Assembly: GCA_964427275.1 (NCBI GenBank)
Contig: CAYRSR010000003.1
Coordinates: forward strand, 168-64,167
Origin: an uncultured Candidatus Saccharibacteria bacterium
GTDB taxonomy: Bacteria > Patescibacteriota > Minisyncoccia > UBA6257 > CAYRSR01
Length of the DNA: 64,000 nucleotides
Direction of reading: 5' to 3'
Part shown: positions 6,786-62,028 of the stretch, in pieces
Layout: every line of letters begins with the position of its first letter
How positions within the stretch are numbered: the first letter of the stretch is position 1
The notes under the pieces: model-generated
Seen by the model: only the letters and a program-made list of their open reading frames with translations
What the model was told of the DNA's origin: nothing
Database searches by the model: none
Position numbers and translations under genes: made by a program

Positions 6786-7182
6786 AATCTACCTCCTTCC
6801 TTATTTTTTGTTTTTAAGTAACCTATTAAATTTATACCATGCTTTTTTTAGATTTGTCAAAGGTAAACTGCAAAAGACGAGATACATTTTTGACATCTCC
6901 AAAATGCTAGATATTGGTATAATTAGTGAAAGAAAGGGTCGAAAATCATCAAAAATTAGTCAAAATGCACCTCATCAATATAGCAAAAAGAGTATTTTCA
7001 CAATGGTGAAATTTGTTAAGAGATTTTAGATATTTGCCATTTATCAATTTTCAATTTTCAATTACCCAGAAGAATTTAACTTCAAACTATCTCGCAAGCT
7101 TTAGGATACAAAACTCCTATTGAGATAATCTGTGGAAGGAGTCAATGTCAAAAATGTACTCATCTTGTACAAGTACAAGGGT

Positions 7183-9479: not shown

Positions 9480-10652
9480 ATGCTTCCTTATCAATTTCTT
9501 CTTTATTCTATAACTTTCTTTTTAAGTGGAATTTTTATAGCTTCTTTTCAGCTTAGTTTTTTAATTATTTCATTAATAGTTCTGCTATTTTGTTTAATTT
9601 TGATTTTTTTAACATTTTTTTACCCTGAAAAATCGAAGTTTTTCATTTGTTTAGCTGGTTTATCTTTCTTTATTTTAGCTGGAACATCCTACTTTTTATT
9701 TTTTAAGGATTTAGATTTAACTCCAGACTGTCCTGATTTTCTTCTATCAGCTAGAAAATTTATGGTAAATTCGTTTAAGCGAGTTTTGCCGGTGCTGGAA
9801 AGTAAATACCTAACCAGTTTAATGTTTGGAGAAAAATATCAGCTAAGTCAAGAATTTAGAGATTTACTTGCTTCAGCTGGAGTAGCTCATCTGGTAGCTT
9901 TCTCTGGTTTACATCTGACCATATCAACTTTATTGATAACCGGGGTAATTTCTTATTTTTTCTCACCTGGTTTCAGTTTACTTATAACCATAATTTTGAT
10001 TTCATTATTACTTCTAATCACTGGATTTAGAGCTACAGCTTTACGAGCAGGTATTATGATGATTGCTTACCTTCTAGCCAGTCAGGTTGGCCGGAAAATA
10101 AAACCAGTTATCATTGTTAGTTTAACTGCATTAATAATAGTGCTTTTAAAGCCAGCCGCTTTAACTCAGGACTTAGGATTTCAATTTTCCTTTTTAGCTG
10201 TTTTGGGATTGATTTATATTAAAGAACCTTTGCGAAGATTTTTGAAAATGAAAAATCAGCCTGGGATTCTTTCCTGGAGAGAGATTTTTTTGACTACCAG
10301 TTCGGCTTTAATTGCAGTTAACCCGCTGTTAATAATTAAGTTTAATCAAATATCGCTGGTAGCTATAGTTTCCAACTTACTGATTTTAGGATTTGTACCC
10401 CTAACTTTAGTTTTAGGATACCTGATTGGATTTTCTGCTATTCTTTCTAACCATTTATCTATTATACTTGGATGGTTTGCTTATATATTGATAAAATATC
10501 AGATTTCAGTAATTCAAATTTTTGGAAGGTTAAATCAAATTATTCAGAATAGCCTTCCCTTTACTTTTTTCACAAATTTTGGTATAGTAGCCCTGTATTG
10601 TTTGGGAGTTATTATTCTGATTTACAGAAATAAAGCACATGACGCGCTCTAA
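9480..10652 (+). CDS. comEC: ComEC/Rec2-family competence channel protein, core only (no MBL domain)
   Basis: Polytopic membrane protein with the competence-domain motif [20 protein letters not shown]. Confidence 0.65.
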
Positions 10653-10975: not shown

Positions 10976-11088
10976 TAAAAATTCAAAATTCAAAAATCAA
11001 AAATCAAAATGACAATTTAAAATTCAAAATGAACAAATGTTAAAATGATTTTGAAATTTGCTAATTTTAACATTTTACATTTATTATT

Positions 11089-30327: not shown

Positions 30328-30462
30328 TTATCCACAATCAAACCCTTGACAAACTATCTTAATTGAATAACATTAAAAATGGAGCTGGAAGGAAATCTAT
30401 TCTTCGGAATAGAGGACCAACCAGCTCCACTGGGGGACGAATCGAAAGATTTGTCCCCCATT
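30328..30462 (+). repeat. left copy of a 135-bp inverted repeat (about 97% identical to 33166..33300, reverse complement)
   Basis: Base-by-base comparison with the reverse complement of 33166-33300 shows 3-4 mismatches over 135 bp. Confidence 0.8.
30346..30373 (+). promoter_or_regulatory. promoter-like TTGACA-16-TAACAT inside the left repeat
   Basis: TTGACA at 30346-30351 and TAACAT at 30368-30373. The predicted start (about 30381) is the first base of the hairpin. Confidence 0.35.
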
Positions 30463-30465
30463 TTT
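30381..30465 (+). ncRNA. candidate structured small RNA or attenuator: UUCG-capped hairpin plus GAAA-capped intrinsic terminator
   Basis: Hairpin 1 is GGAGCTGG...CTATTC-UUCG-GAATAG...CCAGCTCC (30381-30428). Hairpin 2 is TGGGGGAC-(AATC-GAAA-GATT)-GTCCCCCA (30431-30460), followed by TTTTT. Confidence 0.3.
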
Positions 30466-30738
30466 AATTCAAGAATTGAATAGGCAACTATTTCTAATTT
30501 GCAATTTTTAATTCACAATTTTTAATTTTCAATCAATTTTCAATTTTCAATTACCAATTTATAAATTTTAACATTAAATCATTTTGAGTTTTAAATTGCC
30601 TGCCCGCCAATCGTCCGACGGCTCAAGGCGTCTGGCAGGCGGGTAATTTTTAATTTTGATATTTGAATTTTAAATTTTATTTTGTAGATTGGCATCATAC
30701 ATTGTAAATTCGTTGATAACCTTATATATTAATTTTCA

Positions 30739-30777
30739 AATGCAACGTTGTATGCAACGTTGCATACAACGTGCTAA
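30739..30777. promoter_or_regulatory. cluster of CAACGTTG palindromes (putative operator) about 80 nt upstream of recG
   Basis: ATGCAACGTTGTATGCAACGTTGCATACAACGTGC contains a perfect 12-bp palindrome TGCAACGTTGCA flanked by CAACGTTG half-sites. The whole forms a near-perfect 36-bp palindrome. Confidence 0.4.
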
Positions 30778-30854: not shown

Positions 30855-32969
30855 ATGCTTGAATTGAATACACCACTTAATCAAGTTCCAGGTTTAGGTT
30901 ATAGATTTTTAAAAAAATTTAACAAACTGAATTTAATCACAGTTAAAGATTTACTCTGGCATTTTCCTTCTAGGTACGAAGATTTTTCCAGAGTTAAAAA
31001 AATTGCCGATGTTAGAATTGGAGAACAGCTAACTATTCAGGGACAGGTGAAAACTATTTCAGCATTCAGAACTCCTAAAAAAAGAATGAAAATAGTTCAG
31101 GCATTAATCAGTGATGGTAGTGGAACCATCCAGGCTATTTGGTTTAACCAATTTTATATTCGAACTAGACTAAAAAAAGGAACTCTAGTTAACTTGGCTG
31201 GAAAAGTTAGTGTATATAAAAATAAGCTTTGTTTAAATAATCCAACTTACGAAATTCTCAAAAACAAAGTCCCAATTCACACTGCTAGAATTGTTCCAAT
31301 TTATCCTGAAACCAAAGGACTAACCTCAAAAGGAATTCGGCATTTCATTAGAAAGATTTTGATGAATCTTAAGCCAATCCCCGAATTTCTGCCAAAATTA
31401 GCCTTAGTTGAGCTTAACTTCCCAGAAATAAACAAAGCTTTATGGCAAATTCATTTCCCTGAAAATTTATCAGAAATAAATCCAGCTAAAAAAAGATTTG
31501 CATTCCAGGATTTATTTTTACTCCAATTAAACAATTTAATTGAAAGGTGGAATATCAGAAAACATAAAGCCTATCCATTCAAAATTGATTATAAACGAAT
31601 TAAGCAACTTTTAGCCAAGCTTCCGTTTCAATTAACTATTTCTCAAAAAAAATGCCTATTTCAAATTCTAAAAGACTTACAAAATGAATATCCAATGAAT
31701 CGTTTACTTCAAGGAGAAGTTGGTTCAGGAAAAACTATTTTAAGCTTTCTGGCAGCCAATGTTGTAGCTGAACAAAACCAGCAAGTTGCCCTGCTTGCAC
31801 CTACCGAAATTTTAGCATTTCAGCATTATCAAGCTTTTAAAAAATTTTTTCCTAAGTTTGAAAAAGGAGTTTGTATTTTAACTTCCAAACAAAAAAGAAT
31901 TTTTTATTCAGAAAAATTGGAATGTAAAACTACCAAAAAAGAACTATTACCTCTAATAGAATCAGGTAAAATCAAAATAGTAATTGGTACTCAAACTTTG
32001 ATCCAAAAAGAGGTTAAATTTAGTAATTTAGCTTTAGTAGTAATTGACGAACAACATAGATTTGGCGTAAAACAAAGAGCTAAATTACTTAAAGAAGGTA
32101 CTACAAATATCCCTCACTTTCTATCTATGACTGCTACTCCAATTCCCAGAACTCTAGGTTTAGCTATTTTCGGTGACCTGGATATGTCTAGAATTGAAGA
32201 ACTTCCTAAAAATCGAAAGCCAGTAATCACCAAAATAATTCCTCCAAAAAAAAGAAAACAAGCTTATTCATTTATTAGAGCTGAAATTAAGAAAGGAAAT
32301 CAGGCTTTTGTAGTTTGTCCAAGGATAGAACCCACTAATAAAGAAGCTAATAATCTAAATAGAAAAAAATTAATCTGGGCTGAAGTAAAGGCAGTAAAAG
32401 AAGAATATCAAAAGTTATCTAAAAAAATTTTTCCCGATTTAAAAGTTGAAATGCTCCATGGGAAGATGGATTCAGAGAAGAAGGAAAAGATTATAAACCG
32501 ATTTAAAGATGGAAAAATTGATATTTTAGTTTCAACTTCAGTAATTGAAGTTGGAATTGATATTCCTAACGCTACTATTATGGTAATTGAAGGGGCAGAA
32601 AGATTTGGATTAGCTCAACTTTATCAACTCAGGGGAAGAGTTGGGAGAAGAGAAAAACAATCTTATTGCTTTTTATTCAGTGATTTAGAATCAAAAACAT
32701 CCAGACAAAGACTAGAATCAATAATTAAAGCTAAAAATGCTTTTGAGTTAGCTGAGCAGGATCTGAAACTAAGAGGACCGGGTGAATTTTTAGGAGAAAG
32801 TCAAACTGGACTCCCAGATTTAGCAATGCAAGCCTTAAATAATCCAGAATTAGTAAAAGTTTCTAGAGAAATTGCAATAAAAACCTTAAAAATTGACCCA
32901 AGCTTAAAAGCTTTTCCAGAACTAAGAAAGAAAGTGATTGAGTTTTACAAAGAAGTACATCTGGAATAA
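30855..32969 (+). CDS. recG: ATP-dependent DNA helicase RecG
   Basis: Wedge domain plus SF2 helicase motifs (GEVGSGKT, DEQHRFG, YQLRGRVGR). Confidence 0.88.
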   Translation: MLELNTPLNQVPGLGYRFLKKFNKLNLITVKDLLWHFPSRYEDFSRVKKIADVRIGEQLTIQGQVKTISAFRTPKKRMKIVQALISDGSGTIQAIWFNQFYIRTRLKKGTLVNLAGKVSVYKNKLCLNNPTYEILKNKVPIHTARIVPIYPETKGLTSKGIRHFIRKILMNLKPIPEFLPKLALVELNFPEINKALWQIHFPENLSEINPAKKRFAFQDLFLLQLNNLIERWNIRKHKAYPFKIDYKRIKQLLAKLPFQLTISQKKCLFQILKDLQNEYPMNRLLQGEVGSGKTILSFLAANVVAEQNQQVALLAPTEILAFQHYQAFKKFFPKFEKGVCILTSKQKRIFYSEKLECKTTKKELLPLIESGKIKIVIGTQTLIQKEVKFSNLALVVIDEQHRFGVKQRAKLLKEGTTNIPHFLSMTATPIPRTLGLAIFGDLDMSRIEELPKNRKPVITKIIPPKKRKQAYSFIRAEIKKGNQAFVVCPRIEPTNKEANNLNRKKLIWAEVKAVKEEYQKLSKKIFPDLKVEMLHGKMDSEKKEKIINRFKDGKIDILVSTSVIEVGIDIPNATIMVIEGAERFGLAQLYQLRGRVGRREKQSYCFLFSDLESKTSRQRLESIIKAKNAFELAEQDLKLRGPGEFLGESQTGLPDLAMQALNNPELVKVSREIAIKTLKIDPSLKAFPELRKKVIEFYKEVHLE

Positions 32970-33097
32970 ATTTTCGAAATTCTTTTAAAATTAAGGATAT
33001 CGACAGTCGGTTCGATTACTGTTACTATTATTCCAGCCAATATTAGCAAAACAACTACAACTATTAACAATTCAATCAAAGTGAATCCATTCTTCAT
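32945..33097 (-). CDS. short type IV pilin-like protein (class III signal peptide), 50 aa
   Basis: Unlisted ORF MKNGFTLIELLIVVVVLLILAGIIVTVIEPTVDILNFKRISKIYSRCTSL. It has the canonical prepilin cleavage/methylation motif G|FTLIEL with Glu at +5. It overlaps the recG 3' end by 25 nt on the opposite strand. Confidence 0.5.
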   Translation of the reverse strand: MKNGFTLIELLIVVVVLLILAGIIVTVIEPTVDILNFKRISKIYSRCTSL

Positions 33098-33162
33098 TTT
33101 TAACTTTCTTATTAGTATACCACGAGATTGACAAACGATAAGTTGGTAAGCTTACTTTTATA

Positions 33163-33247
33163 AAAAATGGGGGACAAATCTTTCGATTCGTCCCCCAGTG
33201 GAGCTGGTTGGTCCTCTATTCCGAAGAATAGATTTCCTTCCAGCTCC
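33163..33247 (-). ncRNA. second (inverted) copy of the candidate structured RNA/attenuator, upstream of the pilin-like ORF
   Basis: Same two hairpins on the minus strand. The promoter-like TTGACA is at 33277-33282 (minus sense), and a U6 tract follows the terminator hairpin, about 70 nt before the pilin ATG. Confidence 0.3.
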
Positions 33248-33300
33248 ACTATTAATGTTATTCAATTAAGATAATTTGTCAAGGGTTTGATTGTGGATAA
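33166..33300 (-). repeat. right copy of the 135-bp inverted repeat
   Basis: Reverse complement of 30328-30462 with 3-4 mismatches. Confidence 0.8.
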
Positions 33301-33490
33301 CTTTTATAGGTTATCAACCAATTTGCAATATATGATGCCAATCTGCAAAAGTTAAAAATTTAAAGTGTGAAAATCAAAATGTAAAAAGGTCATCAACGAA
33401 TTTACGAATAAAAGTTAGAAATTAGAAGTTAGAAGTTGGAAGTTGATAATTGATTGAAAATTAGAAATTGAAAATTGTAAATTGAATTAT

Positions 33491-33519
33491 TTGCCACTCT
33501 TAGGTTTTTGTGCTAAAAT
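33491..33519 (+). promoter_or_regulatory. promoter TTGCCA-17-TAAAAT that ends 6 nt before the ATG (leaderless)
   Basis: TTGCCA at 33491-33496, TAAAAT at 33514-33519 and ATG at 33526. Confidence 0.45.
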
Positions 33520-33525
33520 CTAATT

Positions 33526-34104
33526 ATGATTATTCAGTGGTACGGAGAAAATTGTTTCAGATTAAAAATTGGAGATACATCAATTCTGACCGACCCTACT
33601 AATAAAAAACTAAAAGGAGATTTAACTATTTACACCTCATATCCGTTTAAGGATTTAGAAAAATTTCAGTCAGCTGGAATAATAAATTACCCCGGGGAAT
33701 ACGAATTAAAAAATATCTTTGTAACCGGGTTTTTAAATCCTGGTTCAAATCAGCAAACTATTAAGACAATTTATCAAATTTCCTGGAATAATTTTTTGAT
33801 TGGAATTTTAGGGTATTTGAAACCAAAAGAATTAAATGAATGGCAGAAGGAACTTGGTAATATTGACATCTTATTTATTCCGGTTGGTGGAAAGCCATTT
33901 ATTTCAATTGAACAAGCGGTTGAATTAGTGAAATATTTTAAACCTAAGTTGGTGATTCCTACTCTATTTAAGCAAATTAAGCAGGTTAGTTTATTTGCCA
34001 AGCAACTTGGAAAATTTAAATTAAAACCTCAACTTAAAATAGCTATAACCAGTTCAGGTTTAGAACGACAGGAATTGGAAATAGGTTGTTTAACCAAAAG
34101 CTAA
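33526..34104 (+). CDS. MBL-fold metal-dependent hydrolase (UPF0173-like)
   Basis: MIIQWYGENCFRL...TDP in the N-terminus, resembling the MKIQWLGHSCF-type hydrolase family. Confidence 0.55.
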   Translation: MIIQWYGENCFRLKIGDTSILTDPTNKKLKGDLTIYTSYPFKDLEKFQSAGIINYPGEYELKNIFVTGFLNPGSNQQTIKTIYQISWNNFLIGILGYLKPKELNEWQKELGNIDILFIPVGGKPFISIEQAVELVKYFKPKLVIPTLFKQIKQVSLFAKQLGKFKLKPQLKIAITSSGLERQELEIGCLTKS

Positions 34105-38025: not shown

Positions 38026-38415
38026 TTGGTTTATAATCTAAGTATGTATAAGTTTATAATCCTGGCTGGGTTAATGCCTGAATGTCCTGAAACTGGGTGC
38101 ACTTTTTGTAATTTAATGCAGTTGGGAGAAAACATCTTAGATTTTTTAATTGGGTTAGCTATTCCAGTTAGTGTTGGTTTTATTGCCTGGGGTGGAATAA
38201 TATTAATAACCGCTGGTGGTAGTGAAAGAAAAGTAAGTGAAGGTAGAAGGATTGTTACTGGTGCAATAACTGGATTAGTTATTGTGCTTTGTTCCTGGTT
38301 AATTTTAAGTACACTCCTTCAGATAATTGCCGGGCAGGAGTGGTACAAACCCTGGAAAAAAATTGAATGTCTTTCAAGTCAAAAACTAGCCAGGGTTGAA
38401 CTTAAAAGATTATGA
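38026..38415 (+). CDS. small two-helix membrane protein, VirB2/TrbC-pilin-like (paralog 1)
   Basis: Helix-GG-loop-helix layout ending ...LLQIIAG. It shares a motif with the next two ORFs. It has an N-terminal Cys cluster CPETGCTFC. Confidence 0.35.
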   Translation: MVYNLSMYKFIILAGLMPECPETGCTFCNLMQLGENILDFLIGLAIPVSVGFIAWGGIILITAGGSERKVSEGRRIVTGAITGLVIVLCSWLILSTLLQIIAGQEWYKPWKKIECLSSQKLARVELKRL

Positions 38416-38738
38416 TTTTATCAATTGTTCACAAAGTTTTAGCAGTAGAATTACCTAATCCGCTAAGGGCTGAAAGTATTGCTGAAGTGATTGAAAGAGT
38501 TATTGACGGATTAATGTGGGTAGCTACCCCGCTGGCTACCATAATGATTTTAGTGGCAGCTTTTCAGTATATGACTTCTGGGGGAAATCCGGAAAACATA
38601 AATCGAGCCAAAAGAACTCTACTTTGGACAGTAATTGGTTATGGAATAATTTTGGTTTCAAGAGGAATAATAGAAATAGTTCAACAACTATTAGGAGCTC
38701 CAGCTTCACCTCCAACTCCACCATTAATTTCAGTTTAA
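38412..38738 (+). CDS. small two-helix membrane protein, VirB2/TrbC-pilin-like (paralog 2)
   Basis: Shared motif AAFQYMTSGGNPENINRAKRTLLWTVIGYGIILVSRGIIEIVQQLLGA. Confidence 0.35.
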   Translation: MILSIVHKVLAVELPNPLRAESIAEVIERVIDGLMWVATPLATIMILVAAFQYMTSGGNPENINRAKRTLLWTVIGYGIILVSRGIIEIVQQLLGAPASPPTPPLISV

Positions 38739-38806
38739 AAACATTAAACTTGACAAGAGGGTAATTAATGGTTAAATAAGATAAAGGTCGAGAGTTTGAA
38801 TAAAAA

Positions 38807-39139
38807 ATGAAGATTATCAAACAAATTTTACCTCTAGTAGTGTTATTTTCAGTAGTGTCACTTCCCTTATTAGCTATCGAGCATGCTCCTGCACCGGTTA
38901 GAAGCATTGAGGATGTAATTGCTATATTAAACCGAGTTGTTGATTGGTTCTTTACTATACTGATGATAGTAGCAGTAATATTTATTTTTGTGGCTGCTGT
39001 TGGATATTTAACCAGTGGCGGGAAGGAGGATAAGATTATTAAAGCTCAAAGACAGTTTATTTATGCTGTAGTAGCAATTGGCATAGCTCTAGTTGCTCGA
39101 GGAATAGAATTTATTGTTAGACAATTACTTGGAGCTTAA
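38807..39139 (+). CDS. small two-helix membrane protein, VirB2/TrbC-pilin-like (paralog 3)
   Basis: Signal peptide plus AAVGYLTSGGKEDKIIKAQRQFIYAVVAIGIALVARGIEFIVRQLLGA. An AAAGGTCGA motif sits 14 nt upstream. Confidence 0.35.
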   Translation: MKIIKQILPLVVLFSVVSLPLLAIEHAPAPVRSIEDVIAILNRVVDWFFTILMIVAVIFIFVAAVGYLTSGGKEDKIIKAQRQFIYAVVAIGIALVARGIEFIVRQLLGA

Positions 39140-45602: not shown

Positions 45603-47981
45603 ATGAGATTCTTTCTTTTAGATTTGAATTATATTATTGATTCTTCTGGAAAGACAAAAGCACGCTTGTTTGGAAAGGATGAAAAAGGGAAAGTGGTAAA
45701 GTCTCTTATTGATTTTTCTCCTTATTTTTTTGTTTTGCCAGAGAAAGGAAAGGAAAAACAAGCAATAAGGGATATTGAAAAGTTACTTGCTTTGAAAAAG
45801 AAAAAGGTAGAAAAAATAGAAATTGTAAAGAAAAAATTAAATGGAAAAGAAAAAGCCCTTATTAAAATTACCTGTTTTACTCCTCCTGATACTTCAAATA
45901 TAAGAGACATTGTAAAGAAGCTGGAGAAAAAAAGAGGAGGAAAAGGAACAGTCTTAGAAGAGTATCAATATTCTCTTTCTTTTTCTGATTCTTTTTTGCT
46001 TGAAAATAGGATTTATGAACCTAGTTGGGTTGAAGAAAAGAATGGAAAAATTACTTCTTCTAATATTGAAAAAGAGCCCCAACTAAAGACAATTGCCTTT
46101 GATATTGAAATTAATATTGAAAATGGAAAAGAGAAAATTATTATGATTTCTTATTTTGGAGATAATTTTAAAAAAGTAGTTACTTATAGAAAAAAAGGTA
46201 GATATCCTGATTTTGTAAAACTGGTAAAAAACGAAAAAGAACTTTTGGAAGATTTTGAAGCTACCATTAAAGAAAAAGATCCAGATATTATTCTAACTTA
46301 TAATGGTGATGCTTTTGATTTCCCAATGATAAGAGAGAGAGCAAAAGAGTACAAGTTGAAATTAAAAATCGGAAGAGCTAATGATGAATTCAAGTTTTTA
46401 AGGAGAGGAAGAGCATCAGCAGCTCATATTTCAGGAAGGGTTCATGTTGATATTTTCCCTTTTGTAAATAACATTCTTTCTCCGAGTCTTGAAACTGAAG
46501 TTTTAACTTTAAATGCGGTCTCAGGTGAACTTTTAGAAGATAAAAAAATCGAAATGGATTTTCAGGAGTTGCTGGAGGCCTGGCGAAAGAAAAAAGATTT
46601 ACAGAAGTTAGCCTTATATTGCCTAAAGGATTCTGAACTTACTTTTCGACTTTTCAATTTACTTTCTTCTCAAATCTTTGAACTTTCAAAAATTTCAGGT
46701 CAGCTTCTGTTTGATGTTTCAAGAATGAGCTATTCACAACTGGTAGAAAGCTTTTTAACTAAAAAAGCCCATTATTTAGGAGAGGTAATCCCCAATCAAC
46801 CAAAATTTGATGAGATTTTAAGAAGAAAGCAATTTACCTTTGCTGGTGGTTATGTTAAAGAACCAATTGGGGGAATTCATAAAAACATTGCGGTGGTAGA
46901 TTTTCGTTCTCTTTATCCTTCAATCATTGCTACATTCAATATTTCTCCGGAAACTTTAAATTGTTCTTGTTGTAGGGACAACGGGTTTAAGGTTCCTGAA
47001 TCAAATTTTTGGTTTTGTAAAAAGAAAAAAGGATTTGTTTCTTCAGTAATTAGAGAGCTTTTGAAAGAAAGGTGGGAGATTAAAAAGAGAATGAAAAAGT
47101 TAAAAGAAGATTCAAAAAAATATCATCTTTTAAATACTCGTCAGCAGGTTGTAAAAATTATTACCAATGCTACCTATGGTTATTTTGGTTTCCCTGCTTC
47201 AAAATGGTACTGTAAGGAGTGTGCTCAGTCTGCAGCTTCATGGGGAAGAAGTTTGATTAGAAGAGTAATGGAAAAAGCAAGTGAAAATTTTGTGGTGGTT
47301 TATGGAGATACTGATTCGGCATTTTTAAAGCCAAAAGAAAAAAAGGAGAAAACTCTTAAAAAAGATATTGAAAAGTTCCTAGAAAAAATCAATAAAGCCC
47401 TACCAGGAATAATTGAGTTGGATTTGCAGGGCTTTTATAAAAGAGGAATTTTTATCCCCAGAGGTTTAATTAAAGGCACAGCAAAGAAAAGATATGCTCT
47501 TTTAGATGAAAAAGGAAAGCTCTTAATAAGGGGACTTGAAACTGTAAGAAAGGATTGGTGCAATCTGGCAAAAGAACTTCAAAGAAAAGTTTTAGAATTT
47601 GTACTTAAAAAAGAGGACATTAAAGGAGCTATTAAATATACCCAGAAAACTATTTCAAAATTGAAGTCAAGAAAGATTTCATTAAGAGATTTGGTAATTT
47701 ATGAACAGTTAACCAAGCCAATTGAAAAGTATAAATCTTTATCACCTCATTTAGCCTGTGCTAAAAAAATGAAAGAAAAAGGAGAAGAAGTAGAACCTGG
47801 AACAATTATTATGTTTGTAATTTCAAAAAAGGAAGGAAAAATTTCTGACAAGGCAATTCCTTATGAGTGGGCAAAAGTTTCTGATGTTGATGTAGACTAT
47901 TATATTCATCACCAGATATTACCAGCAGCATTAAGAGTTCTTTCTGTTTTTAAAGTTGAGGAAAAGGACTTAATTGTTTAA
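45603..47981 (+). CDS. family B DNA polymerase with 3'-5' exonuclease
   Basis: Exo I FDIE, Exo II YNGDAFDFP, Exo III YCLKDSELTF. Pol motif A DFRSLYPSII, KKRY motif and motif C YGDTDS. Confidence 0.8.
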   Translation: MRFFLLDLNYIIDSSGKTKARLFGKDEKGKVVKSLIDFSPYFFVLPEKGKEKQAIRDIEKLLALKKKKVEKIEIVKKKLNGKEKALIKITCFTPPDTSNIRDIVKKLEKKRGGKGTVLEEYQYSLSFSDSFLLENRIYEPSWVEEKNGKITSSNIEKEPQLKTIAFDIEINIENGKEKIIMISYFGDNFKKVVTYRKKGRYPDFVKLVKNEKELLEDFEATIKEKDPDIILTYNGDAFDFPMIRERAKEYKLKLKIGRANDEFKFLRRGRASAAHISGRVHVDIFPFVNNILSPSLETEVLTLNAVSGELLEDKKIEMDFQELLEAWRKKKDLQKLALYCLKDSELTFRLFNLLSSQIFELSKISGQLLFDVSRMSYSQLVESFLTKKAHYLGEVIPNQPKFDEILRRKQFTFAGGYVKEPIGGIHKNIAVVDFRSLYPSIIATFNISPETLNCSCCRDNGFKVPESNFWFCKKKKGFVSSVIRELLKERWEIKKRMKKLKEDSKKYHLLNTRQQVVKIITNATYGYFGFPASKWYCKECAQSAASWGRSLIRRVMEKASENFVVVYGDTDSAFLKPKEKKEKTLKKDIEKFLEKINKALPGIIELDLQGFYKRGIFIPRGLIKGTAKKRYALLDEKGKLLIRGLETVRKDWCNLAKELQRKVLEFVLKKEDIKGAIKYTQKTISKLKSRKISLRDLVIYEQLTKPIEKYKSLSPHLACAKKMKEKGEEVEPGTIIMFVISKKEGKISDKAIPYEWAKVSDVDVDYYIHHQILPAALRVLSVFKVEEKDLIV

Positions 47982-48392
47982 ATGAAATTAAACCAGATAA
48001 TTAAAGGGTTTAAAGAATTTGAAAGGTTAAAAGAAGATAAACTAAAAGGAATTTATCTTTTGCTTATTAAAGTAAAGAAAGATACTTCTATTCAAATTGG
48101 TAAATTGAGGAAAATAAGGTTTGATAAAGGAAATTATCTTTATGTTGGTTCAGCTCAAAATAACTTGAGGGCAAGGATAAAAAGACACTTTAGAAAAAAT
48201 AATAAAACTAAATTCTGGCACATTGATTATTTACTTTCCAATAAAAATGTGAAAATTAAAAAGGTATTTTATAAGCTTGCAAAAAAGGAGGAAGAATGCA
48301 AAGCTGCCCGGTTAGCTTTAAAATATGGCAAGCCAATTAGAGGTTTTGGTTGCTCGGATTGTCAGTGTAGGAGTCATCTTATAAAAATTTAA
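47982..48392 (+). CDS. GIY-YIG domain protein (DUF123-like)
   Basis: GIYLLLIK-(~28 aa)-YLYVGSAQNNL…R…H, 136 aa. Confidence 0.5.
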   Translation: MKLNQIIKGFKEFERLKEDKLKGIYLLLIKVKKDTSIQIGKLRKIRFDKGNYLYVGSAQNNLRARIKRHFRKNNKTKFWHIDYLLSNKNVKIKKVFYKLAKKEEECKAARLALKYGKPIRGFGCSDCQCRSHLIKI

Positions 48393-48393
48393 G

Positions 48394-49278
48394 TTACTTT
48401 GATATTTTTAATTTTCTCCTTCTTGTTGCATGAAATGACTGATATACCTGTTTGAGCTGTCGATTGGTTAAATGTGTATATACCTGGGTAGTAGAAATGT
48501 TTTTATGCCCTAAAAGAGCTTGAACTGATCGAAGATCAGCTCCATTAATTAGTAAATCGGTAGCAAAAGAATGTCTTAACTTGTGAGGAGATACTCTTTT
48601 TAGAATTCCCGCTTTTCTGGCATAAAAATCTACAATTCTTTCCACTGTTCTTGGGGATACTGGGAAAAGCTTTGGGCTCACATCCTTTCTTTTGTTTAGA
48701 TACTTTTTTAAGGCTTGTTTAGCTGATTCAGATAAAAAAACTAATCTTAATTGTCCTCCTTTTCCCCTGATTGTAATTTCTCCTTTATCTATATCAATAT
48801 ATCTTTCTAAACTACATAATTCAGATAACCTTAATCCGGTTGAAAACAAAACTTCCAAAATAGCCTTATCTCTTAAGGACTTTAGGTCGTTACCCTGAGG
48901 AGCGTCCAGCAATCTTAAAAGTTCCTGGTAATCTAAAACTTCTATTTGTCTTGGGGGAATTCTTGGAAGTTCTATTTTATCTGGAGATAAAACTTTAAAA
49001 TCTCTTTTAATTAAATATTTTAAGAAATTTCTTAATGCAATTATGTAATAGGATTGGGTATTTTTTTGGAGAGGTTTTCCAGATGCAGTTTTCTTTCTGG
49101 CCAACCACAATCTAAATTCTCTTACTTTATCTTTGGTTATATCCTTTTCGGTTTTAATTTTAGAAAATTTAAAGAAGGTCTCTAGATAATGTCGGTAATT
49201 TCTTCTAGTTCTAATGGAGCGATTTTTTTCAATTTCAAGATAATCTAGATAATCTTTTAAAAGAATGTTGATATCCAT
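48394..49278 (-). CDS. tyrosine recombinase XerC/XerD-like
   Basis: The C-terminal LRHSFATDLLINGADLRSVQALLGHKNISTTQVYTHL matches the Xer catalytic region (R..HxxR...Y). Confidence 0.8.
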   Translation of the reverse strand: MDINILLKDYLDYLEIEKNRSIRTRRNYRHYLETFFKFSKIKTEKDITKDKVREFRLWLARKKTASGKPLQKNTQSYYIIALRNFLKYLIKRDFKVLSPDKIELPRIPPRQIEVLDYQELLRLLDAPQGNDLKSLRDKAILEVLFSTGLRLSELCSLERYIDIDKGEITIRGKGGQLRLVFLSESAKQALKKYLNKRKDVSPKLFPVSPRTVERIVDFYARKAGILKRVSPHKLRHSFATDLLINGADLRSVQALLGHKNISTTQVYTHLTNRQLKQVYQSFHATRRRKLKISK

Positions 49279-50464: not shown

Positions 50465-50989
50465 TTATTGTCTAAAAAAAATTCTTCCCTTGATAGTCAT
50501 AGTTATTCGACCTGAGCCGATATCTCGACTGAAACTTAAACTATCTAAGCTAATTGGAAAGTTAGAATTTTCCAGACTTACAAGAAAATCTAGAATTTTT
50601 CTAAAAACTCCGGAAAGGCTCATAACAAACTCTATTTCTCCAGGGACAGTTCTAGTACCAGCCTTTTCACTACCAAAAGAAAAACTAAAACCTACCTCAT
50701 TTTGTCTGGCTAGTTCTTCTAGTTCTCGGGAAAGCTGTAATAATCTATCTTTTTCTGGTAAAGCATTTTCTAAAATACTGAATAATGTCTGAGCTTTTTC
50801 AAATTGTTTCTTAAAAGAAGCTAGGGAAGATAAAGACTGACTTTGTCTTAAAATTTCCATTCTTTGGGTCACTACTTTTCTGGCTTGGTTTTGAATATCT
50901 TTAGCTAGCCCCCATAATAAGCTGCCTAAAATCACAATTATACCAAGACTAATTGAAAGTCTTTTAATTAACTTTTTATGGAAATCCAT
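50465..50989 (-). CDS. membrane-anchored protein with a PilO-like layout (N-terminal transmembrane helix, coiled coil, C-terminal alpha/beta domain)
   Basis: The call rests on topology and a weak resemblance only. Confidence 0.3.
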   Translation of the reverse strand: MDFHKKLIKRLSISLGIIVILGSLLWGLAKDIQNQARKVVTQRMEILRQSQSLSSLASFKKQFEKAQTLFSILENALPEKDRLLQLSRELEELARQNEVGFSFSFGSEKAGTRTVPGEIEFVMSLSGVFRKILDFLVSLENSNFPISLDSLSFSRDIGSGRITMTIKGRIFFRQ

Positions 50990-51053: not shown

Positions 51054-51911
51054 ATGCCTGAAATTAAAAAAATCAATTTAACTGATAGAGATTATCCAGT
51101 TTTTCTTAGAGAGATACCCTATCCTCCATCTCCGCTTTACCTAAAAGGAGTTTTTCCAGCATCGAATTTAATAAAAATTGCCATAGTGGGGACCAGAAAA
51201 CCCACTGAACTAGGGATTCATTTAGCTAAAAAAATTGCTAAAGATCTGGCTAAGCAGGGTTTGGTAATTGTTAGTGGTTTAGCTTTGGGAATTGACAGCG
51301 CAGCTCATCAAGGGTGCTTGGATGGGGGTGGACAAGCCATAGCGGTATTGGGTAGTGGTTTGGATAAAATATATCCTGTTACTAACAGAACTTTAGCTCA
51401 AAGGATTTTAAATCAAAGAGGAGCTTTAATTTCGGAATACCCCCCAGGTACTCCTGCATTACCGCATCACTTTCCAGCTCGCAATCGAATAATTAGTGGT
51501 TTATCTCAAGCAGTTGTAGTAATTGAAGCTCCTAGAAAATCTGGTGCATTAATTACAGCTAAATTTGCTTTGGAACAGAATCGGGAGGTATTTGTGGTTC
51601 CAGGACCAGCAAATCATCTTAATTATCAGGGCTCGCACTGGTTAATTAGAGAAGGAGCTAGGTTAGTTTGTACGGCAGAGCAGATTTTAGAAGATTTAAA
51701 CATTAAACCATTTCAACTAAAATTAAATCAAAAGGAAAAGATTATTCTAGAAGCTATCCAGCAAAGTAAAGTTCCTTTAACAGTTGACAAGTTAGTAGAA
51801 GTTACTAAACTTGACTTTCAAGCGGTAAATAAAAGTTTAACTACCTTGCTAGTTGAAGGATTGGTTGAGGAAACCTTAGCTGGATACCAAATAAATACAA
51901 AATCAAAATGA
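51054..51911 (+). CDS. dprA: DNA processing protein DprA/Smf
   Basis: IAIVGTRKPT...IVSGLALGIDSAAHQG...GSGLDKIYP. Confidence 0.85.
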   Translation: MPEIKKINLTDRDYPVFLREIPYPPSPLYLKGVFPASNLIKIAIVGTRKPTELGIHLAKKIAKDLAKQGLVIVSGLALGIDSAAHQGCLDGGGQAIAVLGSGLDKIYPVTNRTLAQRILNQRGALISEYPPGTPALPHHFPARNRIISGLSQAVVVIEAPRKSGALITAKFALEQNREVFVVPGPANHLNYQGSHWLIREGARLVCTAEQILEDLNIKPFQLKLNQKEKIILEAIQQSKVPLTVDKLVEVTKLDFQAVNKSLTTLLVEGLVEETLAGYQINTKSK

Positions 51912-58336: not shown

Positions 58337-59371
58337 ATGGGTTATTTACTGCTTAAGTGCTTGTTATTTAGCTTAACAATTGTTTTGGGAATTTTAAGTA
58401 GTTTAACTGATATTAAAAGACATCAGATTAAAAATTCCTTAATACTTTCTGGAATAGCAGCAGGGTTGGTAATTTATCTTATTTTTGTTACTTTTGGTAA
58501 TTTAAGGTTAAGATATGACTTTTTCTTAAATTTGATAATTGCATTTACCATTAGTTTTGGGTTATATCTTTTAAGAATTTGGCCTCCTGGAGATGCTAAA
58601 TTGTTTTTGCTTTTTTCATTTTTGATGCCTTTTTCTAACTCTTTTAAAATTTACCCCTCGCTTTTTTTGTTTTTTAACATTTTTATAGCTGGCGGGCTGG
58701 TGATTTTATTAAGCTTATTATTAAATTTTATTTTTTCTCCAAGACAAGCAATTAAAGCTATGATAACTAAAAAAAGTTTAAGATTTTTTTCAGAAACTTT
58801 TATAATAGTTTTTTCAATTAGCTGGTTATTCTGGTATTTACTAGAAAAACTAAATTTAAATTTTAATTTTTGGTTAATGTTCGTTCTTTACTTAATTTAT
58901 CTTTCGATTTATAAAGCAATTTACAGGCTAAAAAAGATACCTCTGGCTTTAGGAATTATTTTGATTACTGGAATAAGCTTAAGGTTTTTGCTTCAAAGGC
59001 AAATATTTATTCAACCAGGTTATTTATTTTCCAGCTTAAAGTATAGTATTTTTTTTATTTTGGTTTATACCATATTTCAGGGGTCTAAAGATATATTTAT
59101 GACCGGAAGAGTTCCGGTTCAAAAGCTTTCTGCCTATATGAAAGTAGCCGCTGACTTATATGATAAGCAGGGAAATTTATTGTTAAAAAAAGACACTTTA
59201 CTTACTCAAGAAAATATAAAGGAATTAAAAAGGATTGTTTGGGATAAAAAGGTTGACTTTCAAACTATTCCAGTTAGAAGAATAATCCCGTTTGCGCCTT
59301 TAATGCTTCTAGGAGCAGTTTTAAGTTACACTAATTTTCTAGTTTATTTTTCAAATTTAATTCATAGATAA
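58337..59371 (+). CDS. A24-family prepilin-peptidase-like polytopic membrane protein with an extra C-terminal domain
   Basis: TDIKRHQIKNSLIL (D[IL]xxxxI[PK]N-like first Asp motif) and PPGDAKLFLL (GxGDxKL-like second Asp motif). Confidence 0.45.
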   Translation: MGYLLLKCLLFSLTIVLGILSSLTDIKRHQIKNSLILSGIAAGLVIYLIFVTFGNLRLRYDFFLNLIIAFTISFGLYLLRIWPPGDAKLFLLFSFLMPFSNSFKIYPSLFLFFNIFIAGGLVILLSLLLNFIFSPRQAIKAMITKKSLRFFSETFIIVFSISWLFWYLLEKLNLNFNFWLMFVLYLIYLSIYKAIYRLKKIPLALGIILITGISLRFLLQRQIFIQPGYLFSSLKYSIFFILVYTIFQGSKDIFMTGRVPVQKLSAYMKVAADLYDKQGNLLLKKDTLLTQENIKELKRIVWDKKVDFQTIPVRRIIPFAPLMLLGAVLSYTNFLVYFSNLIHR

Positions 59372-60348
59372 TGGGAAGCTATCCAGAAAATATAACTATT
59401 GAAGTAACTACTGTCTGTAATCAAAGATGTGAGTTTTGTTTTTATGCTCAAAAAAAACTAAAAAATTTATTCCTTCCAAAATCTAGAATAATTGATGCTT
59501 TAAATGAAGCTAAAAAATTAAAAGTAGAAAGTATTAGATTTACTGGAGGTGAACCGCTTTTAAGAAAGGATATAGTAGATATTTTAAGTCAAACTAAGGA
59601 TTTAGGATTCTATGTATTTTTAAATACCAATGCTACACTAATTAATGATGATTTGATAAGGAAAATAGAAAACAATGTAGATAATGTTTTGATTTCTCTG
59701 CCAGCAGCAAGCAAGTTGATAGCTAAAAAAATTGGTAATTCAAATATTTCTTTAAAATTAAAAAATATTAGGAAACTGGTTAGGTCACGAATTCCTCATA
59801 TCAGAGTAGGGACGATTATTTCTAGATATTTGCTTAAAAATTTCAATCAGTATTTTAATTTAATTAATTACTTAGGAATAAAACGGTGGGAATTTTATAG
59901 GCCGATGATAGAAAAAAAGATACTTAAAAAACTACCAGAATATAATATTTCCAGGCAAGATATTTTGAAAGTAATGAATTTTTGCCTGTGGCTTAGAAAG
60001 AAGGGGATAGCAGCCTACATTCCCAACGCAGTTCCTTTTTGTATAACCGATGATAAAAAATTGGCTATTTACAGTTTAAAAGGAGGACAGTTTGATGATG
60101 GCAGAGAAAGATTAGTGTTGGATGTTAGAGGATACTTTAAACCGAGCTATTATATCGATATAAACCTGGGAGAAACTATAACCTCAGCTATAAATCATCC
60201 ATTTATCAAAAAAGTTCATAGTGAATCCTGGCTTTCCGAAGTTTGTCAGAAATGTCCATTTGTAAACAAATGTGGAGGGGGAAGTAGATTCTGGGCTTAT
60301 CAAAAGTATGGAGATTATTTTGCTAAAGACCCACTGATGAAACAATGA
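59371..60348 (+). CDS. radical SAM / SPASM-domain protein
   Basis: N-terminal CNQRCEFC (CX3CX2C) and C-terminal CQKCPFVNKCGGG. The start overlaps the upstream stop. Confidence 0.75.
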   Translation: MGSYPENITIEVTTVCNQRCEFCFYAQKKLKNLFLPKSRIIDALNEAKKLKVESIRFTGGEPLLRKDIVDILSQTKDLGFYVFLNTNATLINDDLIRKIENNVDNVLISLPAASKLIAKKIGNSNISLKLKNIRKLVRSRIPHIRVGTIISRYLLKNFNQYFNLINYLGIKRWEFYRPMIEKKILKKLPEYNISRQDILKVMNFCLWLRKKGIAAYIPNAVPFCITDDKKLAIYSLKGGQFDDGRERLVLDVRGYFKPSYYIDINLGETITSAINHPFIKKVHSESWLSEVCQKCPFVNKCGGGSRFWAYQKYGDYFAKDPLMKQ

Positions 60349-61046
60349 AGTTTGTATTTTTAAGAGATGATGATGTTTTTGAGCTGGATTGGAAACTTCG
60401 AAAATTTTGCCAGCTAATTTTAGCTCTGAAAATGCCAGTAATTTTTGGAGTAATTCCCAAAAAGATTACTCCGGCTACAGTTAATTTTTTAAATCAGTTA
60501 AAAGAAGAATATCCCGATTTAATTGATATTGTTCAGCATGGCTATCAACATAAAAATTATAGTCAAAATTCAAATTACAAATACGAGTTTGGTCCGAAAA
60601 GAACTTATCTTCAACAAAAAAACGATATTCTGGCTGGCAAAAAATTGATGGAAAAATATTTTGGTAAAAATTTTACTCCTGCTTTTATTCCTCCATTTCA
60701 TGGATATAATTTAGATACTTTGAAAGTTATAAACGAACTTGGCTATAAAATCTTTTCAGCCGGAAAGAAAACTAACTTTCCAAGCAAATTTTTTTTAGAT
60801 TTACCAGCTAAAATAAGTTTAAATATTTATTTAAAAAATCAGACCAGAACTTTAAATTTAAAAGAAATGATTATAAAGTTTACTAATGCTTGTTTTAACT
60901 CTAAAGTTTTGGGAATAGTTTTACATCATCAAGATTTGGATGACTTTAAATCAATTGGTAAATTTTTTAGATTTATTCAAATGAAAAGTAAGAAAAGCGA
61001 AATAAAGTTAATTAATTTTTCAGCTATACTAAAATTAAGAAAATGA
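60345..61046 (+). CDS. putative polysaccharide-deacetylase-like protein (DUF2334-like)
   Basis: LRDDDV...HGYQH motifs. The call is weak. Confidence 0.35.
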   Translation: MKFVFLRDDDVFELDWKLRKFCQLILALKMPVIFGVIPKKITPATVNFLNQLKEEYPDLIDIVQHGYQHKNYSQNSNYKYEFGPKRTYLQQKNDILAGKKLMEKYFGKNFTPAFIPPFHGYNLDTLKVINELGYKIFSAGKKTNFPSKFFLDLPAKISLNIYLKNQTRTLNLKEMIIKFTNACFNSKVLGIVLHHQDLDDFKSIGKFFRFIQMKSKKSEIKLINFSAILKLRK

Positions 61047-62026: not shown

Positions 62027-62028
62027 TT

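What the first reader, a model, noticed from the sequence alone, without database searches (positions are those of the whole stretch)
32945..33097. Unannotated 50-aa type IV pilin-like ORF antisense-overlapping the recG 3' end
MKNGFTLIELLIVVVVLLILAGII… carries the textbook class III signal: G|F at the cleavage site and Glu at +5. At 50 aa it is little more than the N-terminal helix, so it could be a minimal pilin or a pseudopilin fragment. It sits directly downstream (minus sense) of the right repeat's promoter, hairpin and terminator, so read-through would regulate it. An A24 prepilin-peptidase-like gene (58337), comEC, dprA and a PilO-like gene elsewhere in the window fit a competence-pilus context.
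Basis: partly seen in the sequence, partly recalled or inferred. Interest (0 to 1): 0.55.

Follow-up and report, generated by a model that had tools for sequence, protein, structure and literature searches.

The report
Orphan 50-codon prepilin-like ORF beside recG
A 50-codon open reading frame next to recG in a Patescibacteria genome carries a genuine type IV prepilin signal but nothing after it, has no relatives and no pilus genes nearby, and is most likely the leftover front end of a lost pilin gene, or less likely a helix-only mini-pilin.

Summary
The ORF is real: 32945-33097 on the minus strand, MKNGFTLIELLIVVVVLLILAGIIVTVIEPTVDILNFKRISKIYSRCTSL. Its N-terminus is a significant class III (prepilin) signal. 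TIGR02532 scores 32.8 bits (E 4e-8, cut-off 16.3) and PF07963 scores 30.1 bits. It is the only such motif in all six frames of the window, and none appeared in 100 Markov surrogates.

Similarity to any pilin stops at about residue 26-30. The 22-residue tail matches nothing among 1.84 billion representative proteins. Its last 8 codons are simply the antisense of recG's conserved EVHLE* end. Only 25 nt overlap recG; the rest is intergenic.

No gene caller on record called the ORF. Its codon usage resembles spurious ORFs more than real genes. The nearest recG relatives (at most 61% identity) share no synteny and have no prepilin ORF nearby. No pilus ATPase or platform gene lies in the 64 kb.

The upstream "promoter-hairpin-terminator" is a self-contained, duplicated sRNA-like module with a strong terminator. 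It is not a leader for this ORF.

Best reading: a 5' remnant of a pilin gene (about 0.5). Main rival: a functional helix-only mini-prepilin (about 0.35-0.4). Interest is low.

The parts
32945..33097 (-). 50-codon ORF plus TAA stop, encoding MKNGFTLIELLIVVVVLLILAGIIVTVIEPTVDILNFKRISKIYSRCTSL
   Evidence: PF07963 30.1 bits; TIGR02532 32.8 bits
33086..33097 (-). Leader peptide MKNG (4 aa) ending in the invariant Gly(-1). The predicted prepilin-peptidase cleavage site lies between G4 and F5.
   Evidence: Read directly from the sequence. HMM alignment to TIGR02532 positions 2-23.
33014..33085 (-). Hydrophobic alpha1N segment FTLIELLIVVVVLLILAGIIVTVI, with Glu at mature position +5. This is the only part with significant similarity to pilins.
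   Evidence: hydropathy; best solved match: Geobacter PilA-N, residues 2-25
32948..33013 (-). 22-residue tail EPTVDILNFKRISKIYSRCTSL (net charge +2, one Cys). It has no homologue anywhere and is predicted to continue the helix.
   Evidence: Exhaustive phmmer against 1.84e9 representatives gave only two hits, both confined to residues 3-33. AlphaFold helix 2-48. P(no stop in 22 random codons) = 0.21.
32945..32969 (.). 25-nt convergent overlap with the recG 3' end. The last 8 ORF codons and its stop are the antisense of recG ...FYKEVHLE*.
   Evidence: The recG C-terminus EVHLE* is conserved in relatives.
33114..33122 (-). Extended -10-like motif TGGTATACT, 16 nt upstream of the ATG. It is a possible own promoter giving a ~10-nt leader with no Shine-Dalgarno sequence.
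   Evidence: The motif is expected 0.07 times per 45 nt by chance and is present upstream of 7 of 56 genes. This is weak evidence.
33155..33300 (-). Repeat module A, right copy. It comprises a promoter-like site TTGACA-16-TAACAT (33282-33255), a 53-nt hairpin with a UUCG loop (33250-33198), and a terminator hairpin with a GAAA loop (33197-33168) plus a U-run. It is an sRNA-like unit immediately upstream of the ORF and is not part of it.
   Evidence: (z = -7.7)
30328..30473 (+). Repeat module A, left copy (97% identical), facing recG. No prepilin ORF follows it.
30855..32969 (+). recG (704 aa), convergent with the ORF. No intrinsic terminator-like site was found between its stop and the ORF, so its transcript probably runs antisense through the ORF.
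58337..59371 (+). Context only: a 344-aa membrane protein with a Peptidase_A24 domain (residues 14-123). Both catalytic Asp motifs are visible (TDIKRHQIKN, PPGDAKLF). There is no PilD N-terminal domain hit. It is followed by three radical-SAM genes.
50465..50989 (-). Context only: PilO-like protein (PF04350, 27.1 bits against a cut-off of 22), with no PilM/PilN neighbours.

Best explanation
The ORF is the intact 5' end of a former full-length type IV pilin or pseudopilin gene that once lay convergent to recG. That 5' end comprises the start codon, the MKNG leader, the G|F cleavage site, Glu+5 and the hydrophobic alpha1N helix. A deletion or rearrangement in this repeat-rich intergenic region removed the part encoding the amphipathic alpha1C helix and the globular head. 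The frame now runs through unrelated sequence and 25 nt of recG antisense until the first chance stop. If it is still transcribed and translated, the product would be a 50-aa prepilin. An A24 peptidase could trim it to a 45-aa single-helix membrane peptide, but it is not a conserved, dedicated pilus subunit. Shown: the motif is genuine, similarity ends at about residue 28, the tail is orphan, no relatives or pilus neighbours were found, and the locus is flanked by rearranged repeats. Inferred: the truncation event itself, and the lack of function.
For: (1) Every pilin model and structure matches only residues 2-24 to 2-30. Full-length models all fall far below their cut-offs: ComGC 18.6 against 75, GspG 21 against 88.85, ComGD 22.6 against 70.
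(2) An exhaustive HMMER search of 1.84e9 representatives finds nothing that shares the tail. A word-index search also finds nothing.
(3) The last 8 codons are dictated by recG's conserved C-terminus. A 22-codon stop-free run has P = 0.21 by chance in this genome, so the tail needs no selection to explain it.
(4) The codon score is 0.09 bit/codon. Real 50-codon gene windows score 0.37 +/- 0.14, which puts the ORF at the 2.6th percentile. Spurious ORFs score -0.01 +/- 0.18. The synonymous-only score is at the 7.5th percentile of real windows.
(5) No pipeline on record called it as a gene.
(6) It stands alone. No pilus machinery gene is adjacent, and none of the PilB/C/T/M/N type is in the 64 kb. 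In contrast, the pilins of the studied Patescibacterium TM7x sit in T4P loci and have globular heads (PMC11623550).
(7) The locus shows recent rearrangement. The A modules are 97% identical and inverted. The B/C modules are permuted, giving A-B-C-recG on the left against B-C-A-ORF on the right. Three assemblies break contigs inside A.
(8) No prepilin motif occurs within 4-5 kb of recG in 20 related loci.
Against: The start codon and signal are pristine (32.8 bits), which would not be expected after long neutral decay in a genome with a 6.9% stop-trinucleotide frequency. The genome is about 90% coding, and streamlined genomes usually purge dead DNA. An extended -10-like motif sits at a plausible distance upstream. 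An A24 peptidase gene is present. Very short prepilin ORFs of 54-76 aa recur in phage genomes and form PHROG families with 59-72-aa profiles. No donor or full-length paralogue, and no deletion scar, could be shown, because only this window of the genome is available and all public copies are 100% identical.
Confidence: 0.5

Rival explanations
1. It is a functional minimal prepilin. The ORF is expressed from its own extended -10 promoter, inserted N-in/C-out, and cleaved after Gly4 by an A24 peptidase. The resulting 45-aa alpha1-only peptide either co-assembles into the competence or type IV filament as a minor subunit, or stays in the membrane and modulates the assembly platform or the peptidase.
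For: The class III signal is intact and above the cut-off. The first possible start codon gives a canonical leader. AlphaFold predicts one continuous helix 2-48 at pLDDT 83. TGGTATACT lies 16 nt upstream. A24, PilO-like, ComEC and DprA genes are in the same genome. T4P are nearly universal in Patescibacteria (PMC11623550). There are precedents for very short pilins: Flp pilins may consist only of alpha1N (PMC4471445), the mature Geobacter PilA-N is 61 aa, and 54-76-aa prepilin ORFs occur in viral contigs and short PHROG families. Short ORFs are systematically under-called, so absence from protein databases is weak evidence.
Against: No homologue of the tail exists anywhere. Codon usage is atypical. 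The ORF is isolated from any pilus gene. recG transcription runs antisense through it. The tail is net positive, which is unusual for a translocated segment. It lacks Gly14 and Pro22 of classical T4a pilins. It scores lower on the phage mini-pilin profiles than those proteins do (24 against 31-40 bits). The only A24 gene seen is atypical: no PilD N-terminal domain, and it sits in a radical-SAM operon.
Confidence: 0.36
2. It is a small membrane-toxic peptide of a type I toxin-antitoxin-like module. In this reading a 50-aa single-pass hydrophobic peptide with a basic C-tail is kept in check by antisense RNA, namely recG read-through or the neighbouring sRNA-like module.
For: The size, the single TM helix and the basic tail fit. 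The ORF is adjacent to a highly structured sRNA-like gene. Convergent recG transcription overlaps its 3' end.
Against: The match to the prepilin motif is far too specific to be incidental (E 4e-8). The sRNA module is co-oriented with the ORF, not antisense to it, and a second copy has no such ORF beside it. No convincing sRNA-mRNA complementarity was found (uninformative). No known type I toxin family was hit in Pfam or NCBIfam.
Confidence: 0.05
3. It is a chance ORF in AT-rich intergenic or antisense sequence with a fortuitous G-F-T-L-I-E string.
For: AT-rich sequence favours Ile/Leu/Val/Phe-rich translations. The ORF is short, uncalled and orphan.
Against: TIGR02532 gives E 4e-8, about 3e-5 after correction for 731 open stretches. 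None of 100 Markov surrogates contains the strict pattern. The motif sits exactly behind the first available ATG with a proper Lys-containing leader.
Confidence: 0.02

Closest known systems
Prepilin-type N-terminal cleavage/methylation domain proteins (class III signal peptide; TIGR02532 / Pfam PF07963), i.e. type IV pilins and T2SS/Com pseudopilins
   Same: It has a hydrophilic leader ending in Gly, Phe at +1, Glu at +5 and about 24 hydrophobic residues. It scores above both curated cut-offs.
   Different: It has no alpha1C or globular head; only 22 residues follow the hydrophobic segment. The leader is 4 aa, against the 6-26 aa quoted in PMC4471445. It is not in a pilus locus. Every full-length equivalog model (ComGC, ComGD, GspG, GspH, PilA) falls far below its cut-off.
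Geobacter-type truncated pilin PilA-N (geopilin domain 1; PDB 2M7G, 9EGP, 7TGG)
   Same: It is the best solved-structure match (residues 2-25; E 0.003). It is also a pilin reduced to the alpha1 helix, thought to have arisen by loss or fission of the C-terminal domain (PMC5174107).
   Different: The mature Geobacter PilA-N is 61 aa, has conserved aromatic and charged residues, and has an adjacent PilA-C gene in the same operon. Here the mature length would be 45 aa, those residues are absent, and the downstream sequence is recG antisense. There is no sequence similarity beyond residue 26.
Flp/Tad (type IVc) pilins
   Same: The mature size is comparable (about 45-60 aa), and they may consist only of the alpha1N helix (PMC4471445). 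The A24 protein in the window lacks a PilD-type N-terminal domain hit, which is how I recall TadV-type peptidases to be (from memory, not tested).
   Different: From memory, Flp pilins have long leaders and a G/xxxxEY motif, with Tyr after the Glu. This ORF has the T4a/T2SS/Com-type G|FTLIEL. No Flp family was hit at E <= 10, and no tad genes are in the window.
Short prepilin-like ORFs of phages (PHROG 10597, 13280, 11263; IMG/VR loci L027-L032)
   Same: They are 54-76 aa and begin MKNGFTLIE..., so they are very short prepilin-type proteins outside pilus operons.
   Different: Their tails are Gly-, Pro- and Cys-rich and are unrelated to this tail. The match is confined to residues 2-26 and is weaker (24 against 31-40 bits). 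This locus is flanked by housekeeping genes (recG, an MBL-fold hydrolase, gyrA), not phage genes.

Membership tests
Type IV pilin / class III signal peptide (TIGR02532, PF07963) | Hydrophilic leader peptide ending in an invariant Gly at -1 | tested here: met
   MKNG|F is read directly from the sequence. The leader is only 4 aa, shorter than the 6-26 aa range given in PMC4471445.
Type IV pilin / class III signal peptide (TIGR02532, PF07963) | About 21 predominantly hydrophobic residues after the cleavage site, interrupted by Glu5 | tested here: met
   FTLIELLIVVVVLLILAGIIVTVI has E at +5; hydropathy.
Type IV pilin / class III signal peptide (TIGR02532, PF07963) | Profile score above the curated cut-off | tested here: met
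   TIGR02532 scores 32.8 against 16.3 bits. PF07963 scores 30.1 against 21.2 bits.
Type IV pilin / class III signal peptide (TIGR02532, PF07963) | Cleavage (and N-methylation) by a dedicated prepilin peptidase | not testable with these tools
   An A24-domain gene exists at 58337-59371 (31.4 bits) with both Asp motifs visible. No PilD N-terminal domain hit was found, and processing cannot be tested in silico.
Type IV pilin (structural subunit, 'lollipop' fold) | A ~50-residue alpha1 helix whose C-terminal half packs on a globular beta-sheet head | tested here: not met
   The mature length would be 45 aa. AlphaFold gives a single helix 2-48 with no head. No model aligns beyond about residue 30-41.
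Type IV filament system component | Encoded with or near the assembly ATPase, platform protein and other pilins | tested here: not met
   It is the only prepilin motif in 64 kb. No PilB/C/T/M/N domain occurs in any of the 56 large ORFs scanned. The nearest pilus-related gene (PilO-like) is 17 kb away. The rest of the genome could not be examined.
Bona fide conserved gene | Orthologues in related genomes or homologues covering the whole length | tested here: not met
   There are no whole-length homologues among 1.84e9 representatives. No prepilin ORF is near recG in 20 related loci. The relatives have at most 61% recG identity and are not syntenic, so this test has low power.
Competence pilins ComGC / ComGD / ComGE / ComGF | Equivalog HMM at or above its cut-off | tested here: not met
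   ComGC 18.6 against 75; ComGD 22.6 against 70; ComGE 19.1 against 49; ComGF 18.2 against 80. All align only to residues 2-30.
Geobacter-type truncated pilin (PilA-N) | Adjacent PilA-C-like gene, and conserved aromatic/charged residues (F24, Y27, R28, K30, Y32, ...) | tested here: not met
   Downstream is recG antisense and upstream is the sRNA-like module. Alignment to 9EGP/7TGG ends at residue 25-26. The features are taken from PMC5174107.
Flp/Tad type IVc pilin | Flp motif (G/xxxxEY, from memory), a long leader, and a Flp family HMM hit | tested here: not met
   The sequence reads G|FTLIEL, with Leu rather than Tyr after Glu5, and the leader is 4 aa. No Flp family was hit at E <= 10.
Type I toxin-antitoxin (small membrane toxin) | A cis- or trans-encoded antisense RNA that pairs with the toxin mRNA | tested here: inconclusive
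   Only recG's 3' end overlaps, by 25 nt. The adjacent sRNA-like module is co-oriented. The duplex search was uninformative.

The most novel reading that the evidence does not exclude
The ORF is a functional, stand-alone, helix-only mini-prepilin. At 45 aa mature it would be shorter than Geobacter PilA-N and of non-Flp type. It would be processed by the A24 peptidase and would either prime, cap or poison the pilus or competence filament, or titrate the peptidase and platform. That would link it to the so far uncharacterised 54-76-aa prepilin ORFs seen in phage genomes.
Probability: 0.3. Interest if true: 0.45.

Novelty: new member of a known kind. Interest (0 to 1): 0.2.

Why it matters
If it is only a remnant, its value is practical. 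It marks a recently rearranged, repeat-flanked recG locus in an otherwise streamlined Patescibacteria genome. It also warns that TIGR02532-only hits should not be counted as pilins. If it is expressed, it would be among the smallest prepilin-type proteins known. It would then suggest that alpha1N-only peptides can act as accessory or regulatory parts of type IV filament systems in ultrasmall bacteria, which rely on such filaments for host attachment. Either outcome is of modest general interest. The adjacent duplicated sRNA-like module may be the more interesting object at this locus.

Tried and rejected
1. An exact-product look-up of the ORF found nothing on record.
2. A word-index homology search gave 2 candidates and no hits. 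The index evidently does not serve such common or low-complexity words.
3. An exhaustive phmmer search of 1.84e9 representatives gave two generic pilin N-terminus hits only.
4. recG was used as an anchor to find relatives in GTDB genomes, JGI metagenomes and the 5.8e9-protein set. The nearest is 61% identical, none is syntenic downstream of recG, and none has a prepilin motif within 4-5 kb.
5. I looked for strain variants in other samples. All public copies are 100% identical, and contigs from other samples break inside repeat A before reaching the ORF. No population-genetic signal is available.
6. I checked for a frameshifted continuation of a pilin in the other two frames and beyond the stop. 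None was found; that region is recG antisense.
7. Rfam at E <= 10 over 32900-33540 gave nothing credible. The riboswitch or attenuator idea was rejected because the module is duplicated without the ORF and has no visible antiterminator.
8. The RNAduplex test of the sRNA against the ORF mRNA was uninformative.
9. The GC content of the ORF (28.9%) does not discriminate coding from intergenic sequence here.
10. A Moraxella/R64-type pilin inversion or shufflon was considered and rejected. The ORF's truncated end abuts recG rather than a repeat boundary, and the constant N-terminus lies inside the repeat-bracketed segment, not outside it.
11. A look-up of the window-end gene 62029-63060, meant to extend the contig, found nothing on record.
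Full report
**Observation.** The window has an ATG-initiated 50-codon ORF on the minus strand at 33097 to 32948, with its stop at 32947-32945. It encodes MKNGFTLIELLIVVVVLLILAGIIVTVIEPTVDILNFKRISKIYSRCTSL. The ATG is the first start codon after the upstream in-frame stop. recG (30855-32969, plus strand, 704 aa) converges on it. The overlap is only 25 nt, which is the last 8 ORF codons and the stop. The title's "antisense-overlapping recG" therefore overstates the case, because 128 of 153 nt are intergenic.

**Is it more than chance?** Yes.
- Pfam N_methyl PF07963 scores 30.1 bits (E 3.1e-7, cut-off 21.2).
- NCBIfam TIGR02532 scores 32.8 bits (E 4e-8, cut-off 16.3).
- The six frames hold 731 open stretches of at least 30 codons, so the corrected expectation is about 3e-5.
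- A regular-expression scan finds this as the only prepilin motif in the window.
- A stricter pattern (Met leader, G-x-[TS]-x-x-E, then at least 13 of 15 hydrophobic residues) occurs in 0 of 100 second-order Markov surrogates.

The leader ending in Gly, Phe+1, Glu+5 and the hydrophobic tract fit the published definition of a class III signal peptide (PMC4471445). The one departure is that the leader is 4 aa rather than 6-26 aa.

**What the rest of the ORF is.**
- All pilin-family models align only to residues 2-24 or 2-30, and every full-length equivalog is far below its cut-off: ComGD 22.6 against 70, GspG 21 against 88.85, ComGC 18.6 against 75.
- The best solved-structure matches are Geobacter PilA-N chains, aligned over residues 2-25 only. 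A nominal extension to residue 41 against PilE1 has almost no identities.
- An exhaustive HMMER search of 1.84 billion cluster representatives returned two proteins. Both matched only residues 3-33 through their own prepilin motifs.
- The tail EPTVDILNFKRISKIYSRCTSL is therefore orphan.
- Its last 8 codons are the reverse complement of recG's ...FYKEVHLE*. That end is conserved (EVHLE*) in the closest recG homologues, so it is fixed by recG and not by the ORF.
- With a stop-trinucleotide frequency of 6.9%, 22 stop-free codons occur by chance with P = 0.21.
- AlphaFold without an alignment predicts one helix, residues 2-48, at mean pLDDT 83. The product would be a "stick without a head".

**Coding evidence.**
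- The codon log-odds score is 0.09 bit/codon. Fifty-codon windows of the 56 confident genes score 0.37 +/- 0.14, and only 2.6% of them fall lower. Short spurious ORFs inside genes score -0.01 +/- 0.18.
- A synonymous-only score places the ORF at the 7.5th percentile of real windows.
- No gene with this product is on record in a collection that includes NCBI, JGI, ENA and Logan calls.
- The calls on the identical ENA contig skip it.
- Most genes here lack a Shine-Dalgarno sequence, and several look leaderless, with TGnTAnAAT 6-7 nt before the ATG.
- The ORF has TGGTATACT 16 nt upstream. That motif is expected 0.07 times per 45 nt by chance, so this is weak support for an own promoter.

**Relatives.** The organism is a Patescibacterium. 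The recG homologues are named Paceibacterota, Minisyncoccia, Wolfebacteria and similar. The nearest recG is 61% identical. In GTDB representatives and JGI metagenomes the best is 43-48%. In every related locus examined, the genes downstream of recG differ: valS, a glycosyltransferase, rpmF, rpsT, purM-like and pheT. None of 20 related loci has a prepilin motif in any frame. All public copies of this genome segment are 100% identical. Contigs from other samples stop inside the neighbouring repeat.

**Surroundings.** Immediately upstream on the minus strand lies repeat module A (33155-33300). It has three elements:
- a promoter-like site, TTGACA-16-TAACAT, matching 10 of 12 positions;
- a 53-nt hairpin closed by a UUCG tetraloop;
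- a 13-bp hairpin with a GAAA tetraloop (-24 kcal/mol) followed by six U residues.

The fold gives z = -7.7. A 97% identical copy lies at 30328-30473 on the plus strand, between glmS and recG. The similarity ends exactly at the terminator's T-run, so the ORF is not part of the repeat, and the left copy has no such ORF after it. AT-rich modules B and C accompany both copies but are permuted and only 78-85% identical. The order is A-B-C-recG on the left and B-C-A-ORF on the right, read on the minus strand. Module A looks like an autonomous ~90-nt sRNA gene with a strong terminator. I see no antiterminator alternative, so "read-through would regulate it" is not supported. Module A has no Rfam match at E <= 10. 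No intrinsic terminator-like site was found between recG and the ORF, so recG transcripts probably run antisense through it.

**Pilus context.**
- Peptidase_A24 at 58337-59371 (31.4 bits; both Asp motifs visible);
- PilO-like at 50465-50989 on the minus strand, and DprA at 51054-51911;
- ComEC at 9480-10652.

They are dispersed 17-25 kb from the ORF. The other ORFs are housekeeping or unrelated genes, with no PilB/C/T/M/N. The A24 protein has no PilD N-terminal domain hit and heads a cluster of three radical-SAM genes plus a deacetylase. In the one Patescibacterium studied experimentally, pilins lie in T4P loci and have globular heads (PMC11623550).

**A precedent that cuts the other way.** Scanning IMG/VR with the ORF returned six viral loci. 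Each encodes a short prepilin ORF of 54-76 aa beginning MKNGFTLIE. The seed pattern biases the N-terminus, but not the length. PHROGs holds several "unknown function" prepilin-like families with 59-72-aa profiles. Very short prepilins are therefore a recurring gene type, at least in phages. Flp pilins and Geobacter PilA-N show that helix-only pilins can function. The present ORF shares only the signal with any of them, and it scores lower on the phage profiles (24 against 31-40 bits).

**Verdict.**
- The most likely reading (about 0.5) is a 5' remnant of a pilin or pseudopilin gene truncated against recG's stop in a recently rearranged, repeat-flanked intergenic region. It may still be translated into a cleavable 50-aa membrane peptide.
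- A genuinely functional alpha1-only mini-prepilin remains a serious rival (about 0.36).
- A type I-toxin-like peptide is about 0.05, and a chance ORF about 0.02.

The ORF belongs, by its signal, to the prepilin-type N-terminal domain class. It fails the tests for a structural pilin, for ComG, GspG, Flp or Geobacter-type membership, and for a conserved gene. Interest is low, at 0.2. The decisive data are the rest of the MAG, read-level evidence for inversion, and expression data, none of which these tools provide.

Noticed in passing
window 30328-30473 (+) and 33155-33300 (-): Two 97% identical, inward-facing copies of a ~146-nt module bracket recG and the ORF. Each has a TTGACA-16-TAACAT promoter-like site, a 53-nt hairpin with a UUCG tetraloop, and a 13-bp terminator hairpin with a GAAA tetraloop plus a U-run. 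It looks like a duplicated ~90-nt sRNA gene. There is no Rfam match at E <= 10, no match in IMG/VR, and none in relatives' recG loci.
   Followed up: partly
window 30495-30726 and 33305-33484; also 7043-7066 and 10978-11046: AT-rich intergenic modules B and C (AATTTTCAATT-type repeats) are 78-85% identical and in permuted order relative to module A on the two sides of recG. Shorter pieces recur in the long intergenic gaps that precede the genes starting at 7219 and 11089. They may be a dispersed promoter or UP-element-like repeat family.
   Followed up: partly
window ~30336, ~30470, ~33235, ~33457: Contigs from three independent public assemblies (ERZ27248139, ERZ27248349, SRR7051295) start or end inside or next to repeat A. 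Inversion of the 2.7-kb recG segment between the copies cannot be excluded without read mapping.
   Followed up: no
window 30745-30772 and 30600-30645: A 28-nt perfect inverted self-match (GCAACGTTG... palindrome) and a GC-rich hairpin (CGTCTGGCAGGCG...) lie in the otherwise AT-rich recG upstream region.
   Followed up: no
IMG/VR loci L027-L032 (e.g. L030:3001-3165, L029:2995-3231): Viral contigs encode very short prepilin-type ORFs of 54-76 aa, all beginning MKNGFTLIE. PHROG families 10597, 13280 and 11263 (59-72-aa profiles, 'unknown function') are prepilin-like. This is a possible uncharacterised class of phage mini-pilins.
   Followed up: partly
window 58337-63060: An A24-family peptidase-like membrane protein (344 aa; the domain covers only residues 14-123) heads a co-directional cluster of three radical-SAM proteins and a DUF2334/polysaccharide-deacetylase protein. 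This is an unusual context for a prepilin peptidase.
   Followed up: partly
window 38026-39139: Three consecutive small genes have T4SS-pilin/TrbC (VirB2-like) domains and weak matches to the Mbov_0395 conjugal pilin-like family. They follow a solute-binding protein gene.
   Followed up: no
window 45603-49278: A family-B DNA polymerase (792 aa) is followed by a DUF123/GIY-YIG protein and a tyrosine recombinase on the opposite strand. This may be a mobile-element remnant, or an unusual replicative or repair polymerase for a Patescibacterium.
   Followed up: no
window, gene starts (e.g. 30855, 33526, 4309, 7219, 45603): Most genes lack a Shine-Dalgarno sequence. Several have TATAAT or TGnTAnAAT ending 3-7 nt before the start codon, which suggests frequent leaderless mRNAs.
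   Followed up: partly
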